DNA of 5,349 nucleotides, taken from a virus (lineage: Duplodnaviria; Heunggongvirae; Uroviricota; Caudoviricetes). This document shows positions 1,489 through 4,571 of this stretch, in pieces. The stretch's first letter is position 1; each line of letters opens with the position of its first letter. The position numbers were made by a program, and so were the translations under genes. The stretch covers positions 1 to 5,349 of IMG/VR virus record IMGVR_UViG_2684622670_000010. One strand, 5' to 3'. Below the pieces are notes generated by a model. That model did no database searches, had not been told where the DNA came from, and saw only the letters and a program-made list of their open reading frames with translations.

Positions 1489-1731
1489 CTTTGTGATTCC
1501 ATCAAGCGCATACTTAAAAGCCCTGCTAATCGGACTGATGTCTGATGCCATTCCGAAAGCACACAAGACCGAAGCAATAAATCTCCAGTCCGTTCTGCTT
1601 ATCTTCGATTCATGACAGCCAATCATCTTTGCCAGACCGCGCTGTGTAAGCGTTGACAGGTTGATGAGTAAATCTGTTTCTGCGCGATCAACGTCGCGCT
1701 GTGATAGTTTGCTGTAACTTGTTTGTTCCAT
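1435..1731 (-). CDS. cII: CII-family transcriptional activator (98 aa; P22 c1 / lambda cII analog)
   Basis: ORF in the track. The HTH segment (GLAKMIGCHESKISRTD) and the C-terminal tail (KKKSPVAAGDSKQIDMQF) parallel lambda CII (recalled ...NKKRPAATERSEQIQMEF). Sits between cro/nutR and the O gene, as in lambdoid phages. Confidence 0.85.
   Translation of the reverse strand: MEQTSYSKLSQRDVDRAETDLLINLSTLTQRGLAKMIGCHESKISRTDWRFIASVLCAFGMASDISPISRAFKYALDGITKKKSPVAAGDSKQIDMQF
1464..1488 (+). terminator. Rho-independent terminator (oop-type) embedded antisense within cII
   Basis: CCCCGG (1464-1469), loop cggcca, CCGGGG (1476-1481), then A and TTTTTT (1483-1488). GC stem plus U-run on the plus strand only. 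Confidence 0.6.
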
Positions 1732-1837: not shown

Positions 1838-2065
1838 TTATGCAGCCAGAAGGTTCTTTTTGCTTATTTCAAGCATTTCGCTTGCTTGATATTTGCCACC
1901 AGAAATCTCTTCGATTTTTGATGCATATTTCGTTTTCCCAAAAAACTCAGTCTTAGGGAGGAAGCCGTTTTTAAGCCACTTATAGACAGCCCTTTCGCTA
2001 ACTCCACAAGCCTTCGCAACTTCAGGGATGCCGACACCTTTAATCGGCTCATCAAGATTTTGCAT
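1838..2065 (-). CDS. cro: Cro-like HTH DNA-binding protein (75 aa from ATG 2065; the track ORF extends to an upstream ATG at 2098)
   Basis: Divergent from the repressor gene. HTH-like segment IPEVAKACGVSERAVYKWLKNG. SD AAGGA lies 7-8 nt before ATG 2065; the upstream ATG 2098 has no SD and sits inside the predicted PR -10. Lysine-rich C-terminal tail. No recalled similarity to lambda or P22 Cro, so the call rests on position and the HTH. Confidence 0.7.
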   Translation of the reverse strand: MQNLDEPIKGVGIPEVAKACGVSERAVYKWLKNGFLPKTEFFGKTKYASKIEEISGGKYQASEMLEISKKNLLAA

Positions 2066-2143
2066 AGGAATATCCTTTTTCGTACTTTCAGTACGCATTA
2101 TGATTGAACTGAAAGTTTTTGCAAGTGCTTTAGTATCGTACTC
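2066..2143. promoter_or_regulatory. OR region: divergent PR (toward cro) and PRM (toward cI) with three dyad-symmetric candidate operators
   Basis: PR on the minus strand: -35 TTGCAA (2119-2124), 16-bp spacer, -10 CATAAT (2102..2097). Candidate operators: GTAC-tttca-GTAC (2082-2094), GAAC-tgaaa-GTTT (2106-2118), AGTA-tcg-TACT (2132-2142), with centres 24-25 bp apart. The cI ATG at 2144 has no SD, and a -10-like TAGTAT (2131-2136) would start a leaderless mRNA, as at lambda PRM. Confidence 0.55.
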
Positions 2144-2851
2144 ATGGTTCAGAATGAAAAAGTGCGCAAAGAATTCGCCCAGCGGCTAGCGCAAGCCTGT
2201 AAAGAAGCTGGTCTTGATGAACATGGTAGGGGGATGGCCATAGCCCGTGCCCTTTCTCTTTCGTCCAAAGGCGTTAGCAAATGGTTTAATGCTGAGTCTT
2301 TACCGCGTCAGGAAAAAATGAATGCGCTTGCGAAATTTCTAAACGTTGATGTTGTTTGGCTTCAGCACGGCACTTCGTTAAATGGAGCGAATGATGAAGA
2401 TACTCTTTCATTTGTTGGCAAATTAAAAAAAGGGTTAGTGCGCGTGGTTGGTGAGGCAATTCTTGGTGTTGATGGTGCCATCGAGATGACCGAAGAGCGC
2501 GATGGGTGGCTCAAGATTTATAGCGATGATCCAGATGCCTTTGGTCTTCGTGTGAAAGGAGACAGCATGTGGCCCAGAATAAAATCAGGAGAATATGTAC
2601 TCATTGAGCCTAACACCAAAGTATTCCCGGGTGATGAGGTGTTTGTCAGAACCATCGAAGGACACAACATGATCAAGATTCTTGGCTATGACAGAGACGG
2701 AGAATACCAATTTACAAGCATCAACCAAGACCATAGGCCAATAACGTTGCCTTATCATCAAGTAGCAAAGGTGGAGTATGTGGCTGGTATTCTGAAACAA
2801 TCTCGCCATCTGGATGACATCGAGGCAAGGGAGTGGCTGAGAGATTCCTGA
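2144..2851 (+). CDS. cI: Prophage repressor, CI/LexA family (N-terminal HTH domain + C-terminal S24 peptidase autocleavage domain; 235 aa)
   Basis: ORF in the track. N-terminal HTH (GMAIARALSLSSKGVSKWFNAE). C-terminal S24 catalytic serine motif GDSMWP and a downstream lysine (NMIKIL). Divergent from cro with the operator region between. No leader, consistent with PRM-type expression. Confidence 0.9.
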   Translation: MVQNEKVRKEFAQRLAQACKEAGLDEHGRGMAIARALSLSSKGVSKWFNAESLPRQEKMNALAKFLNVDVVWLQHGTSLNGANDEDTLSFVGKLKKGLVRVVGEAILGVDGAIEMTEERDGWLKIYSDDPDAFGLRVKGDSMWPRIKSGEYVLIEPNTKVFPGDEVFVRTIEGHNMIKILGYDRDGEYQFTSINQDHRPITLPYHQVAKVEYVAGILKQSRHLDDIEAREWLRDS

Positions 2852-2957: not shown

Positions 2958-3335
2958 ATGAGCGATAAAGAGTTTAAAGTACTTGATTTTGATGATTTTG
3001 CTCATTATTTGAGCACATTGAACGGCGAACAAATTTGTCCAATGTGTATGGAAGAGTCATGGACGCTTTTCGCCCCAAACAAGCTTCCTCCAGAAGACGA
3101 GGATAGGTATGTAATAAGTTCTATCCCAGGATCACTTATTTCAAGTAAAAAACCTGAAAAATCAAATCTCTTCTTCAGAAGTTACAACAACGATGTCCTC
3201 CTGATGCAATGCAGAAATTGTGGATACATGGCATTTTTTAATTATAAAAAAGTCCAAGAAAACCTTGAATCAGGGGATTATATAAAAAAAGAAGATATAG
3301 ATATGGTGGATGAAAATGACAAATCAGAAGACTGA
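2958..3335 (+). CDS. Hypothetical protein (125 aa) with two CxxC pairs (putative zinc ribbon) and an acidic C-terminus; first gene of the AT-rich cassette after cI
   Basis: ORF in the track. CPMC (residues 27-30) and CRNC (85-88); tail DIDMVDENDKSED. Sampled 60-nt lines give about 25-38% GC against about 52% in cI. Weak SD. Separated from the cI stop by an AT-rich 106-bp spacer. No recognised homolog. Confidence 0.6.
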   Translation: MSDKEFKVLDFDDFAHYLSTLNGEQICPMCMEESWTLFAPNKLPPEDEDRYVISSIPGSLISSKKPEKSNLFFRSYNNDVLLMQCRNCGYMAFFNYKKVQENLESGDYIKKEDIDMVDENDKSED

Positions 3336-3795
3336 TTTCTTCCGTCCAATGGAGTATGATAATAACTATGAGCAATTTGGTGTTATAGAAGCACACAGGA
3401 ATGGTCGTTCTACTCCGTCATATCAGCCAGGCACCATTGGTAAGGATATCCCGGTTATTATTGCGCATAAGTTAAGCGATCAACCAGCAGGGGGTGAGCC
3501 ACAGATGAGCGTAAAATCACTGTCACGTTGGGAGTTTTGGCTAGGGATTTTCACTGCCATTATTGGGATATTTTCCATTGTTGTAGGAGCAACGTGGACA
3601 ATTTCTAATAATATCAATGATAAGATTAATGCATCAAGACAAGAGCTAACTGGGAACATCCAATCCAGTCGAGCAGAAATCACGGCAAGAATTGACAGGC
3701 TCGAAGATAAGATGGAGTCTAATTTCAAAGAAACATCATCGAATCTGTTCAAAATACAGGCAATTCTAGAAGCAAAATCCGACAAAGAAAAATAA
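3316..3795 (+). CDS. Hypothetical single-pass membrane protein (about 159 aa; the track ORF begins at 3310); second gene of the cassette
   Basis: Hydrophobic segment WEFWLGIFTAIIGIFSIVVGATW (about residues 74-96) flanked by K/R on the N-terminal side. C-terminal about 65 residues are polar and heptad-like (ELTGNIQSSRAEITARIDRLEDKMESNF). GGTGGA lies 5 nt before ATG 3316. The start overlaps the upstream gene's stop (3333-3335) by about 20 nt, suggesting translational coupling. About 30-42% GC in sampled lines. Confidence 0.6.
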   Translation: MTNQKTDFFRPMEYDNNYEQFGVIEAHRNGRSTPSYQPGTIGKDIPVIIAHKLSDQPAGGEPQMSVKSLSRWEFWLGIFTAIIGIFSIVVGATWTISNNINDKINASRQELTGNIQSSRAEITARIDRLEDKMESNFKETSSNLFKIQAILEAKSDKEK

Positions 3796-3800
3796 GAAAG

Positions 3801-3827
3801 TCCGGCCTCAGCGCCGGGTTTCCTTTG
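3801..3827 (+). terminator. Rho-independent terminator ending the cI-cassette transcript (tImm-like)
   Basis: UCCGGC (3801-3806), loop cucagc, GCCGGG (3813-3818), then TTTCCTTTG, 6 nt after the stop of the 159-aa gene. The U-tract is interrupted, so predicted strength is moderate. The A-rich 5' flank could allow some bidirectional activity. Confidence 0.5.
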
Positions 3828-3994
3828 CCTAACGATCGCCCTCCCATATTTAATAGCCGCAAATGTGGTAAACCGCGAACCAACTCACCAGCAATACTCC
3901 CTCCAACTACAGACCAATCTGCAGCATTTACAAAAATAAATTTCCTTATATATCAAAATCATATCTCGCTGCATTAATAAATCACAAAAATTTC

Positions 3995-4036
3995 GTACCA
4001 ATAGTTCTTGATAATATCGAACTATTGGTTCATTAT
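3995..4036 (+). promoter_or_regulatory. pL with overlapping OL operators
   Basis: -35 TTGATA (4008-4013), 17-bp spacer, -10 CATTAT (4031-4036), predicted start near 4043. Two dyads of the same type as in OR: GTAC-caata-GTTC (3995-4007) and GAAC-tattg-GTTC (4019-4031), centres 24 bp apart, overlapping -35 and the spacer/-10. A longer 10-bp inverted repeat CCAATAGTTC (3998-4007) / GAACTATTGG (4019-4028) spans the promoter. Confidence 0.5.
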
Positions 4037-4081
4037 CATCACATCAGCAGGACGCTGGAAGCCAAACGGAACAGATTGGCA

Positions 4082-4116
4082 GGCTCTTTAACTTCGATGG
4101 GGCGCTGACAAAGCGC
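4082..4116 (+). promoter_or_regulatory. nutL (boxA-like + boxB) downstream of pL
   Basis: boxA-like GGCTCTTTA (4082-4090), 11-nt spacer, boxB GCGCT-GACAA-AGCGC (4102-4116), a perfect 5-bp stem with a 5-nt loop. As recalled, this is identical to the P22 nutL boxB RNA (GCGCUGACAAAGCGC). Lies about 40 nt after the predicted pL start and about 120 nt before N. Confidence 0.75.
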
Positions 4117-4235
4117 AAACAGATACCAAACGAGATGGGTTTGGCGGTGATGTGAATTGCAGCTGCAACGACAGCAACCAGAAGATCAGCATCTGGCGCA
4201 TCACCACCAAAGCCATTTCACATGAGGAAAACATC

Positions 4236-4571
4236 ATGACGGTAATCGTGTACGGAAAATCAACATTTGCAGGAAATGCCAAAACTCGCCGTCATGAGCG
4301 GCGCAGAAAGCTGGCTATCGAGCGTGATGCCATCTGCAACATCATCGATTCGATCTTCGGCACAGACAGTGAGGAGCCTGTTCAGGAAGCCCCGAGAAAA
4401 CGTTTAAGCCTTTCTGAAAAAGCAATATCACTCGGAAGCCTTCGCTGCAAGAAGGCAGAAGAAGTCGAGCGTAAACAGAACCGTATTTACTACCGCAAGC
4501 CACGCAGTGAAATGGGTGTGACTTGTGTTGGTCGCCAGAAAATGAAATTAGGCAGCAAACCACTTATTTGA
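4236..4571 (+). CDS. N: N-family transcription antiterminator (111 aa) with a P22-type arginine-rich motif
   Basis: Internal ATG 4236 of track ORF 4152..4571, preceded by SD GAGGA with a 7-nt spacer. The N-terminus MTVIVYGKSTFAGNAKTRRHERRRKLAIERD contains GNAKTRRHERRRKLAIER, which I recall as the P22 N boxB-binding peptide. The C-terminus (RIYYRKPRSEMGVTCVGRQKMKLGSKPLI) parallels lambda N as recalled (RTWYSKPGERGITCSGRQKIKGKSIPLI). First gene after pL/nutL. Confidence 0.85.
   Translation: MTVIVYGKSTFAGNAKTRRHERRRKLAIERDAICNIIDSIFGTDSEEPVQEAPRKRLSLSEKAISLGSLRCKKAEEVERKQNRIYYRKPRSEMGVTCVGRQKMKLGSKPLI

What the first reader, a model, noticed from the sequence alone, without database searches (positions are those of the whole stretch)
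2066..2143. Operator grammar: GWAC-N5-GTWC dyads in OR, with leaderless cI and a truncated view of cro
OR holds three dyad-symmetric elements spaced 24-25 bp apart (2082-2094, 2106-2118, 2132-2142). The same 4-5-4 half-site pattern recurs twice in OL (3995-4007, 4019-4031), which supports these as the repressor operators. The cI start codon has no SD and sits about 7 nt after a -10-like hexamer, implying a leaderless PRM transcript. The 86-aa cro ORF in the track would begin inside PR, so the real start is probably ATG 2065. The third OR element has different spacing (AGTA-tcg-TACT), so the operator definition is provisional. Also present is a 9-bp inverted repeat ACTTTCAGT (2083-2091) / ACTGAAAGT (2108-2116) that bridges the first two sites.
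Basis: partly seen in the sequence, partly recalled or inferred. Interest (0 to 1): 0.45.

Follow-up and report, generated by a model that had tools for sequence, protein, structure and literature searches.

The report
Known phage 933W repressor operators

Summary
The window is a lambdoid prophage immunity region carrying the switch of Shiga-toxin phage 933W. Cro is 100% identical and cI 98% identical to the 933W proteins. GWAC-N5-GTWC is the core (positions 2-5 and 2'-5') of the published 15-bp 933W repressor operator. It matches exactly 4 times against 0.12 expected by chance.

The five real sites are OR1 2081-2095, OR2 2105-2119, OR3 2137-2151, and two OL sites at 3994-4008 and 4018-4032. 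All five are base-for-base identical to 933W. The OR sites coincide with oR1-oR3 as annotated in NC_000924.

- **Right:** OR1, OR2, both OL sites, a two-site OL, cro starting at ATG 2065, and a -10 (TAGTAT) 7 nt before an SD-less cI ATG.
- **Wrong:** the third OR element (2132-2142). The true OR3 core is 2138-2150, centred on the A of the cI ATG, 32 bp from OR2 rather than 24-25.
- **The 9-bp inverted repeat** is only OR1 and OR2 sharing a central pentamer in opposite orientation.

A natural immunity-swap locus with a different cI DNA-binding domain has none of these motifs.

The leaderless cI transcript is strongly implied by the geometry, but I could not read a mapped 5' end. This is already known biology and of low interest.

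The parts
2081..2095 (.). OR1, 15-bp 933W repressor operator CGTACTTTCAGTACG (highest-affinity site). It lies just downstream of the PR -10 and covers the expected PR start.
   Evidence: Identical to 933W and maps onto the annotated 'operator oR1' of NC_000924. Exact motif match. Matrix score 16.5, among the top 5 of 5335 15-mers. T at positions 3 and 3', as the literature states for OR1.
2105..2119 (.). OR2, TGAACTGAAAGTTTT. It lies in the PR spacer between the -35 and -10 and overlaps the putative PRM -35.
   Evidence: Maps onto the annotated oR2. It is the only site with a half-site lacking G at position 2, exactly as PMC3317979 states for OR2.
2137..2151 (.). OR3, CGTACTCATGGTTCA, centred on A2144, the first base of the cI ATG. 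This site gives negative autoregulation of PRM.
   Evidence: Maps onto the annotated oR3. Exact motif match at 2138-2150. Matrix score 15.7. With this site included, position 6 is T in 7 of 10 half-sites and C in 3, as published.
2097..2124 (-). PR: -35 TTGCAA (2124..2119), 16-nt spacer, -10 CATAAT (2102..2097). It drives cro.
   Evidence: Promoter scan. Coincides with the annotated putative pR of 933W.
2109..2136 (+). Putative PRM: weak -35 CTGAAA (2109-2114), 16-nt spacer, -10 TAGTAT (2131-2136). The predicted start is at or 1 nt before A2144, giving a leaderless cI mRNA.
   Evidence: Coincides with the annotated 'pM; putative maintenance promoter' of 933W. Read directly from the sequence. 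The consensus scan does not detect it because the -35 is weak.
1838..2065 (-). cro, 75 aa, starting at ATG 2065, with an AAGGA Shine-Dalgarno 7 nt upstream.
   Evidence: 100% identical to 933W Cro. PGAP aa on an identical OR. HTH domain hits. The upstream ATG of the 86-aa ORF lies inside the PR -10 and reads ATA in 933W.
2144..2851 (+). cI repressor, 235 aa: N-terminal HTH domain plus S24 autopeptidase domain.
   Evidence: 98% identical to 933W cI, with all four differences at residue 171 or later. Pfam HTH_3 and Peptidase_S24. S41, K42 and K46, the published DNA-contact residues, are at those positions.
3994..4008 (.). OL site distal to N (OL2 by lambda convention), CGTACCAATAGTTCT. It abuts the PL -35.
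   Evidence: Identical to 933W. Invariant in 10 of 10 aligned loci. Exact motif match. Matrix score 16.6.
4018..4032 (.). OL site proximal to N (OL1 by lambda convention), CGAACTATTGGTTCA. It lies in the PL spacer and overlaps the PL -10 by 2 bp.
   Evidence: Identical to 933W. One variable column, 4027, in 10 aligned sequences. Exact motif match. Best matrix score in the window, 17.7.
4008..4036 (+). PL: -35 TTGATA (4008-4013), 17-nt spacer, -10 CATTAT (4031-4036). It drives N.
   Evidence: Promoter scan. Both hexamers are invariant across 10 loci.
3802..3817 (+). tM-like hairpin CCGGCCTCAGCGCCGG followed by a T-rich tail: the end of the PRM operon (cI plus two cargo ORFs).
   Evidence: Conserved with the stretch that 933W annotates as 'tM; putative terminator for pM transcript'. 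The scan flags the hairpin.
4236..4571 (+). N antiterminator, 111 aa, the first gene of the PL operon.
   Evidence: Pfam N_peptide, E = 1.9e-26.

Best explanation
This is the immunity switch of Shiga-toxin phage 933W (imm933W), sitting in a mosaic lambdoid prophage.

**Operators.** Dimers of the 235-aa cI repressor bind five 15-bp rotationally symmetric operators of the form N-G-W-A-C-Y-N-(A/T)-N-R-G-T-W-C-N. Three are in OR and two are in OL.

**Repression of the lytic promoters.** OR1 lies over the PR start and OR2 lies in the PR spacer, so together they shut off PR and cro. The two OL sites flank the PL -35 and overlap the PL -10, so they shut off PL and N.

**Autoregulation.** According to the literature on identical sequences, repressor at OR2 stimulates PRM and repressor at OR3 represses it. 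OR3 is centred on the first base of the cI ATG. Binding is non-cooperative, there is no OL3, and the relative dissociation constants for OR1:OR2:OR3 are about 1:14:26. The concentration range between activating and repressing PRM is therefore narrow, repressor levels are low, and the prophage induces easily.

**Transcripts.** The predicted PRM -10 (TAGTAT) ends 7 nt before the SD-less ATG, so cI is most likely translated from a leaderless mRNA, as in lambda. Cro is the 75-aa protein starting at ATG 2065.

**Shown here:** identity of all five sites, cI and Cro to 933W; motif enrichment; conservation of the sites; loss of the motif when the DNA-binding domain is swapped.
**Taken from the literature:** affinities, lack of cooperativity, activation and repression of PRM.
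**Inferred:** the leaderless start, and Cro binding the same sites.
For: - Cro is 100% and cI 98% identical to 933W. cI residues 1-170, which include the DNA-binding domain, are identical.
- The OR region differs from 933W at only 2 of 131 bases (2096, 2103). Both lie in the OR1-OR2 spacer.
- The NC_000924 annotation of oR1, oR2, oR3, pR and pM maps exactly onto 2081-2095, 2105-2119, 2137-2151, 2124..2097 and 2109-2136.
- PMC3317979 describes a 15-bp site with conserved positions 2-5 and an A/T centre, G at position 2 except in one OR2 half-site, A and C invariant at positions 4 and 5, and T in 7 and C in 3 half-sites at position 6. It reports five natural sites and no OL3. The half-site counts in this window reproduce every one of these statements.
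- The motif matches exactly 4 times against 0.12 expected. The five sites are the top five of 5335 15-mers, scoring 12.0-17.7 against 7.4 for the next best.
- In 12 loci with this cI N-terminal domain the motif sits at the same four places, with only one extra hit, inside stk in 933W. L007 has the same cI C-terminal domain (94% identity) but an unrelated N-terminal domain and a different cro. It has zero hits in 12.4 kb and carries TTATC..GATAA dyads instead.
- Across 10 OL sequences, 1 of 30 operator positions varies against 18 of 61 non-operator positions (Fisher p = 0.002).
- Relative affinities and the lack of cooperativity come from PMC5977221 and PMC3202840.
Against: - I could not read the primary footprinting and promoter-mapping papers (PMC524892, PMC524894, PMC3133280 are not held). 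The site sequences are therefore matched through the GenBank annotation and the textual description, not the published figure.
- If PRM starts at A2144, OR2 is centred at -32 and covers the whole putative -35 hexamer. That is one helical turn closer than in lambda (-42) and an unusual position for an activator site. Either activation works differently from lambda or the start is not where predicted.
- I found nothing in the held literature on 933W Cro binding.
Confidence: 0.95

Rival explanations
1. The reader's third element, AGTA-TCG-TACT (2132-2142), is a genuine repressor or Cro site with shorter half-site spacing, either instead of or in addition to 2137-2151.
For: It is a perfect 4+4 palindrome. 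It overlaps the PRM -10, which is where lambda's OR3 sits, and it would give a lambda-like 25-bp spacing from OR2.
Against: A 15-mer in that register scores -18.3 on the half-site matrix. The 933W record annotates oR3 at the equivalent of 2137-2151. The published half-site statistics are reproduced only when 2137-2151 is used. A palindrome with 4-bp arms is common by chance, and this one is fully explained by TAGTAT next to the CGTACT half-site.
Confidence: 0.03
2. The 9-bp inverted repeat (2084-2092 / 2108-2116), and the 11-bp one in OL, are separate functional elements, for example an RNA hairpin, a cruciform or the site of another protein.
For: Both inverted repeats are perfect. In OR and in OL the two adjacent operators share their non-symmetric central pentamer in mirror orientation, which simple half-site conservation does not require.
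Against: The arms lie entirely inside the operator cores. PR and PRM transcripts each start inside or beyond the pair, so neither carries both arms; only a read-through establishment transcript would. The spacers between the arms show no symmetry. With only two pairs, mirror orientation has a substantial probability by chance or by an ancestral inverted duplication.
Confidence: 0.05
3. cI is not translated from a leaderless mRNA. The maintenance transcript starts elsewhere, or translation starts at a downstream codon such as the in-frame GTG at 2162.
For: A start at A2144 puts OR2 at -32 over the putative PRM -35, an awkward position for the reported activation. PRM is only a 'putative' feature in the GenBank record and the consensus scan does not detect it. 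I could not read a mapped 5' end.
Against: TAGTAT (2131-2136) is the best -10-like hexamer correctly placed on the + strand between OR2 and the ATG, and it ends 7 nt before A2144. No SD precedes either ATG 2144 or GTG 2162. The published contact residues S41, K42 and K46 match the sequence only when numbered from ATG 2144. OR3 centred on the ATG is well placed to block a start there. Lambda cI sets the precedent.
Confidence: 0.1
4. The dyads are chance palindromes in AT-rich intergenic DNA and not operators.
For: None beyond the general frequency of short palindromes.
Against: 4 exact hits against 0.12 expected, with 0 of 200 shuffles reaching 4. Identity to experimentally studied sites. Conservation across loci. 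Loss of the motif in the immunity-swap locus.
Confidence: 0.01

Closest known systems
Bacteriophage 933W immunity region (cI, cro, OR1-3, two OL sites; NC_000924; Koudelka et al. 2004, Tyler et al. 2004, Bullwinkle & Koudelka 2011, Bullwinkle et al. 2012)
   Same: All five 15-bp operators are base-for-base identical. Cro is 100% and cI 98% identical. PR, the putative PRM, PL and tM are in the same places. OL has two sites and there is no OL3.
   Different: - Two spacer substitutions flank the PR -10 (2096 C for T, 2103 A for G). The first creates the spurious upstream ATG of the 86-aa ORF.
- One substitution lies in the OL spacer (4016).
- There are four conservative changes in the cI C-terminal domain.
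- The surrounding modules differ: a different replication module, an N of a different type, and two unknown ORFs where 933W carries stk, a RuvC-like gene and a DUF3024 gene.
Bacteriophage lambda OR/OL switch
   Same: Divergent cI and cro, three OR sites overlapping PR and PRM, OR1-OR2 spacing of 24 bp, autoregulated PRM, a cI start without an SD (leaderless in lambda), a repressor with an S24 autocleavage domain, and PL controlled by OL.
   Different: - The operator is 15 bp rather than 17 bp, with an unrelated sequence.
- OL has two sites rather than three.
- Binding is non-cooperative according to the literature.
- OR3 is centred on +1 of PRM (about -19 in lambda) and OR2 at about -32 (-42 in lambda).
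Immunity type of locus L007 (same cI C-terminal domain, different DNA-binding domain; probably the H-19B type, since the literature says H-19B shares its C-terminal domain with 933W)
   Same: The cI C-terminal domain is 94% identical, the downstream cargo ORFs and upstream replication genes are the same, and the layout is the same.
   Different: The cI N-terminal domain is unrelated, cro is 77 aa, and the operators are TTATC..GATAA-type dyads. There is no GWAC-N5-GTWC anywhere, and its cI ATG is preceded by a GAGGGA Shine-Dalgarno-like run.

Membership tests
imm933W (933W-type immunity region) | cI repressor with the 933W DNA-binding domain (contact residues S41, K42, K46) | tested here: met
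   231 of 235 residues identical, with all differences at residue 171 or later. S41, K42 and K46 are present. These residues are named in PMC3317979.
imm933W (933W-type immunity region) | 15-bp rotationally symmetric operator: positions 2-5 G-W-A-C, A/T centre, Y at position 6 | tested here: met
   Half-site counts: G in 9 of 10 at position 2, A in 10 of 10 at position 4, C in 10 of 10 at position 5, T in 7 and C in 3 at position 6, A or T at the centre in 5 of 5 sites. This matches the description.
imm933W (933W-type immunity region) | Three sites in OR at the positions annotated in NC_000924 | tested here: met
   oR1, oR2 and oR3 map to 2081-2095, 2105-2119 and 2137-2151 and are identical in sequence.
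imm933W (933W-type immunity region) | Only two sites in OL (no OL3) | tested here: met
   Only 3994-4008 and 4018-4032 score as sites. The next best 15-mer anywhere in the window scores 7.4 and lies at 77-91. The literature states there is no OL3.
imm933W (933W-type immunity region) | 933W Cro | tested here: met
   75 of 75 residues identical.
imm933W (933W-type immunity region) | Non-cooperative binding with affinity order OR1 > OR2 > OR3 | not testable with these tools
   Reported for 933W. It should carry over because the sites and the DNA-binding domain are identical, but it was not measured here.
Leaderless cI mRNA (lambda PRM type) | No Shine-Dalgarno sequence upstream of the start codon | tested here: met
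   2125-2143 reads GTGCTTTAGTATCGTACTC, with no GGAG- or AGGA-like run.
Leaderless cI mRNA (lambda PRM type) | A -10 hexamer placed so that transcription starts at the A of the AUG | tested here: met
   TAGTAT at 2131-2136 ends 7 nt before A2144. It coincides with the annotated putative pM.
Leaderless cI mRNA (lambda PRM type) | Mapped 5' end at the AUG, and translation from that RNA | not testable with these tools
   PMC4848623 says the 933W PRM start has been mapped and shows it in a figure, but the figure and the primary papers are not held. No held paper calls 933W cI leaderless.
Lambda-paradigm switch (three OL sites, cooperative pairwise binding, OL-OR loop controlling PRM) | Three OL operators | tested here: not met
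   Only two sites in OL.

The most novel reading that the evidence does not exclude
If the maintenance transcript really starts at A2144, OR2 is centred at about -32 and fully covers the putative PRM -35 hexamer, one helical turn closer than lambda's -42. The reported 'activation' of PRM by repressor could then arise largely from relief of competition with the overlapping, face-to-face PR promoter, not from a lambda-like contact with sigma region 4. The mirror-image arrangement of the asymmetric operator cores in both OR1/OR2 and the OL pair could be part of that architecture. The primary papers may already address this; I could not read them.
Probability: 0.1. Interest if true: 0.35.

Novelty: already known. 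Interest (0 to 1): 0.08.

Why it matters
The 933W switch sets how easily Stx2 prophages induce, and therefore how much Shiga toxin is made, so the biology matters. It has, however, been studied since 1999-2012.

What this check adds is practical:
- This prophage, and relatives such as the one in the E. fergusonii ATCC 35469 chromosome, can be assigned to the 933W immunity group with all five operators intact.
- The 86-aa cro call that some gene callers produce is an artefact.
- OR3 should be annotated over the cI start codon.

The same OR sequence occurs in 427 of 5,426 complete E. coli genomes, so it is a common and well-known module.

Tried and rejected
- I tried to read the primary papers (PMC524892, PMC524894 also by DOI, PMC3133280, PMC93574). 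None is held. I relied on PMC3317979, PMC5977221, PMC3202840, PMC4848623 and the GenBank annotation instead.
- A search for '933W' plus 'leaderless' found three papers, none of which addresses 933W cI.
- PMC8951638 gives no operator sequences.
- Allowing one mismatch to the motif adds only OR2 and three coding-region hits (78, 1304, 4478). That total of 8 is not significant against 4.1 expected, so these are not extra operators.
- I looked for a third OL site by matrix scan and found none.
- A PDB sequence search with cI returned only spurious pseudoazurin hits, so no relative has a solved structure.
- I considered a lambda-like PRM using the palindromic TTGCAA (2119-2124) as its -35 with a start near 2154. 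I rejected it because that start lies downstream of the cI ATG, and the ATG at 2154 is out of frame.
- I considered GTG 2162 as the cI start. I rejected it as less likely, because it has no SD and the published residue numbering fits ATG 2144.
- For the cargo ORFs, Pfam and PADLOC gave nothing and PHROGs gave only families of unknown function.

Full report
**What the window is.** The ORF map is a classic lambdoid early region. On the minus strand are a replication O-like gene (433-1254), cII (1435-1731) and cro. On the plus strand are cI (2144-2851, HTH plus S24 peptidase), two unknown ORFs, a terminator hairpin, an intergenic promoter region and an N antiterminator (4236-4571). Megablast shows that the cro-OR-cI core is about 98% identical to many Stx-converting phages. 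Direct comparison with phage 933W (NC_000924) gives Cro 75/75 identical and cI 231/235 identical, with all four differences at residue 171 or later. The window therefore carries the 933W immunity module inside a different mosaic of flanking modules; no phage record or complete E. coli genome covers 80% or more of it.

**Checking the observation.** The pattern GWAC-N5-GTWC matches exactly four times, at 2082, 2138, 3995 and 4019. The chance expectation is 0.12, and 0 of 200 shuffles reach 4. The ATG at 2144, TAGTAT at 2131-2136, the 7-nt gap between them and the absence of an SD are all as described.

**What the sites are.** The 933W GenBank record annotates three 15-bp operators plus putative pR and pM. 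With the mapping window = 8927 - L001 coordinate, these fall at:
- oR1: 2081-2095
- oR2: 2105-2119
- oR3: 2137-2151
- pR: 2124..2097
- pM: 2109-2136

. The 131-bp OR segment differs from 933W at only two bases, 2096 and 2103, both in the OR1-OR2 spacer. The two OL sites (3994-4008 and 4018-4032) are identical to 933W, with one change in the spacer between them.

PMC3317979 describes the 933W site as follows:
- It is 15 bp long and rotationally symmetric about a central A/T pair, with positions 2-5 strongly conserved.
- Position 2 is G except in one OR2 half-site.
- Positions 4 and 5 are invariant A and C.
- Position 6 is T in 7 of 10 half-sites and C in the other 3.
- OR1 carries T instead of the consensus A at positions 3 and 3'.
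- There are five natural sites and no OL3.

The ten half-sites in this window reproduce every one of these statements, but only if OR3 is 2137-2151. A matrix built from the half-sites ranks the five sites as the top five of 5335 15-mers, scoring 12.0-17.7 against 7.4 for the next best. In leave-one-out tests each site still ranks 7th or better. That element is therefore not an operator. It is the PRM -10 (TAGTAT) next to the left half-site of the real OR3. The true spacings are 24 bp (OR1-OR2), 32 bp (OR2-OR3) and 24 bp (the OL pair).

**Independent comparative support.** An exact look-up of the two cargo proteins returned 12 further loci. With 933W (L001) and E. coli 30EVA2 (L002), that makes 14 loci in all.
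- Twelve loci carry the 933W-type cI N-terminal domain. One was too short to include OL, and one is the swap locus described next. In all twelve, the exact motif sits at the same four positions. The only extra hit is one inside stk in the 16-kb 933W locus.
- L007 is a natural immunity swap. It shares the flanks and the cI C-terminal domain (94% identity over residues 82-235), but its N-terminal domain is unrelated and its cro is a different 77-aa protein. It has no motif hit in 12.4 kb, and its OR and OL carry TTATC..GATAA-type dyads instead. The motif therefore tracks the DNA-binding domain and not the neighbourhood.
- In OR, none of the variable positions among 13 loci falls in an operator or a promoter hexamer.
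- In OL, which is more diverged, 1 of 30 operator positions varies against 18 of 61 other positions in 3960-4050 (Fisher one-sided p = 0.002). Counting the PL hexamers as functional as well gives p = 1e-4.

**Promoters and gene starts.**
- PR is TTGCAA, 16 nt, CATAAT (2124..2097, minus strand). PL is TTGATA, 17 nt, CATTAT (4008-4036, plus strand). The scan finds both.
- OR1 lies over the expected PR start and OR2 lies in the PR spacer. The OL sites abut the PL -35 and overlap the PL -10.
- The 86-aa cro ORF starts at an ATG (2098..2096) that overlaps the PR -10, so it cannot be on the PR transcript. That codon reads ATA in 933W. PGAP calls the 75-aa protein on a 100%-identical OR. Other gene callers split between 75 and 86 aa on identical DNA. 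ATG 2065 has an AAGGA run 7 nt upstream.

**Is cI leaderless?** The annotated putative pM places the -10 (TAGTAT) so that it ends 7 nt before A2144. There is no SD, and OR3 is centred exactly on that base. Any promoter regulated by OR2 and OR3 leaves room for at most a few nucleotides of leader. The published residue numbering (S41, K42, K46) fits a start at ATG 2144. Lambda cI is the precedent. I could not read a mapped 933W PRM 5' end. PMC4848623 shows one in a figure that is not held. The claim is therefore strongly implied but not verified here.

One point deserves care. A start at 2144 puts OR2 at about -32, over the putative -35, whereas lambda's OR2 is at -42.

**How it works.** For identical sequences, the literature reports the following:
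- The repressor binds non-cooperatively, with relative dissociation constants for OR1:OR2:OR3 of about 1:13.6:26.4.
- OR1 and OR2 repress PR.
- OR2 occupancy stimulates PRM and OR3 occupancy represses it.
- The activation and repression ranges nearly overlap, so repressor levels are low and Stx prophages induce readily.

From my own recollection of Koudelka et al. 2004, which I did not check here, autocleavage occurs at a Leu-Gly in the linker. This cI has Leu107-Gly108 and no Ala-Gly or Cys-Gly in the linker. Cro presumably uses the same sites, but that is an inference.

**The inverted repeats.** OR1 and OR2 share the asymmetric central pentamer (TTTCA / TGAAA) in opposite orientation, which produces the 9-bp inverted repeat. 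The two OL sites do the same (CAATA / TATTG), which produces an 11-bp perfect inverted repeat. These are the operators themselves and not a bridging element. Why both pairs are mirror images is unexplained. An ancestral inverted duplication is the simplest idea.

**Verdict.** This is an accurate blind rediscovery of a well-characterised regulatory grammar, with one misplaced site. It is already known, widespread (427 of 5,426 complete E. coli genomes carry this OR) and of low interest. The less ordinary item in the window is outside the finding: the two unknown ORFs in the cI operon.

Noticed in passing
window 2958-3335 and 3310-3795 (+), ending at the tM hairpin 3802-3817: Two overlapping ORFs of unknown function sit between cI and the PRM-operon terminator, in the position of lambda rexAB. 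One is 125 aa with two CxxC pairs. The other is 161 aa with a hydrophobic stretch followed by a charged tail. 933W carries stk, a RuvC-like gene and a DUF3024 gene in this slot, and E. coli 30EVA2 carries an SDH-family Clp-fold serine proteinase. The ORFs have no Pfam or PADLOC hit and match only PHROG families of unknown function (4293 and 24865). The DNA is absent from 5,426 complete E. coli genomes and almost absent from the phage collection, but exact protein copies occur in dozens of contigs, including the E. fergusonii ATCC 35469 chromosome, always directly after this type of cI. They are candidates for a lysogen-expressed exclusion or defence cargo.
   Followed up: partly
L007 5040-5230 and 6990-7110: A natural immunity swap: same flanks, cargo and cI C-terminal domain, but an unrelated cI N-terminal domain, a 77-aa cro and TTATC..GATAA-type dyads in OR and OL (for example TTATCATTCCGATAA at 7077). 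Its cI ATG is preceded by a GAGGGA Shine-Dalgarno-like run, so leaderless cI would be specific to an immunity type. It is probably the H-19B type; I did not verify that.
   Followed up: partly
window 2081-2119 and 3994-4032: In both OR and OL the two adjacent operators are mirror images of each other, including their non-symmetric central pentamers. The inner half-sites are alike and the outer half-sites are alike, giving 39-bp super-dyads whose spacers are not symmetric. This is unexplained. It could be an inverted duplication or a constraint of an unknown kind.
   Followed up: partly
window 2096 and 2103: These are the only two OR differences from 933W, and they flank the PR -10 hexamer. C2096 is the first base downstream of it and creates the spurious ATG of the 86-aa cro ORF. 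A2103 is the base just upstream of it. 48 of 428 E. coli records are at least 99% identical to the window over 2040-2160; the rest are mostly in the 95-99% band. Any effect on PR strength was not tested.
   Followed up: no
L010 3796-3808 and L011 3315-3327 (equivalent to window 4027): Two loci carry G to T at position 6' of the N-proximal OL site, which turns that half-site's position 6 into A. PMC3317979 reports that A-T or G-C pairs at position 6 bind the repressor much more poorly, so these prophages may have a weakened OL site.
   Followed up: no
window 4103-4117 (+) and 1757-1818: GCGCTGACAAAGCGC between PL and N is a boxB-like hairpin (nutL), and 933W has the same sequence in its nutL region. 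The cro-cII intergenic stretch 1757-1818, where 933W annotates nutR, is not homologous to 933W. The N protein here (111 aa, with GNAKTRRHERRRKLAIERD near its N terminus) is also of a different type. I read this by eye and did not fold or test it.
   Followed up: no
window 1708-1721 (+): TTGCTGTAACTTGT, a near match to the lambda cII-box TTGC-N6-TTGC, lies inside the first codons of cII and points toward cI. It is a candidate PRE -35 region. I read this by eye only.
   Followed up: no
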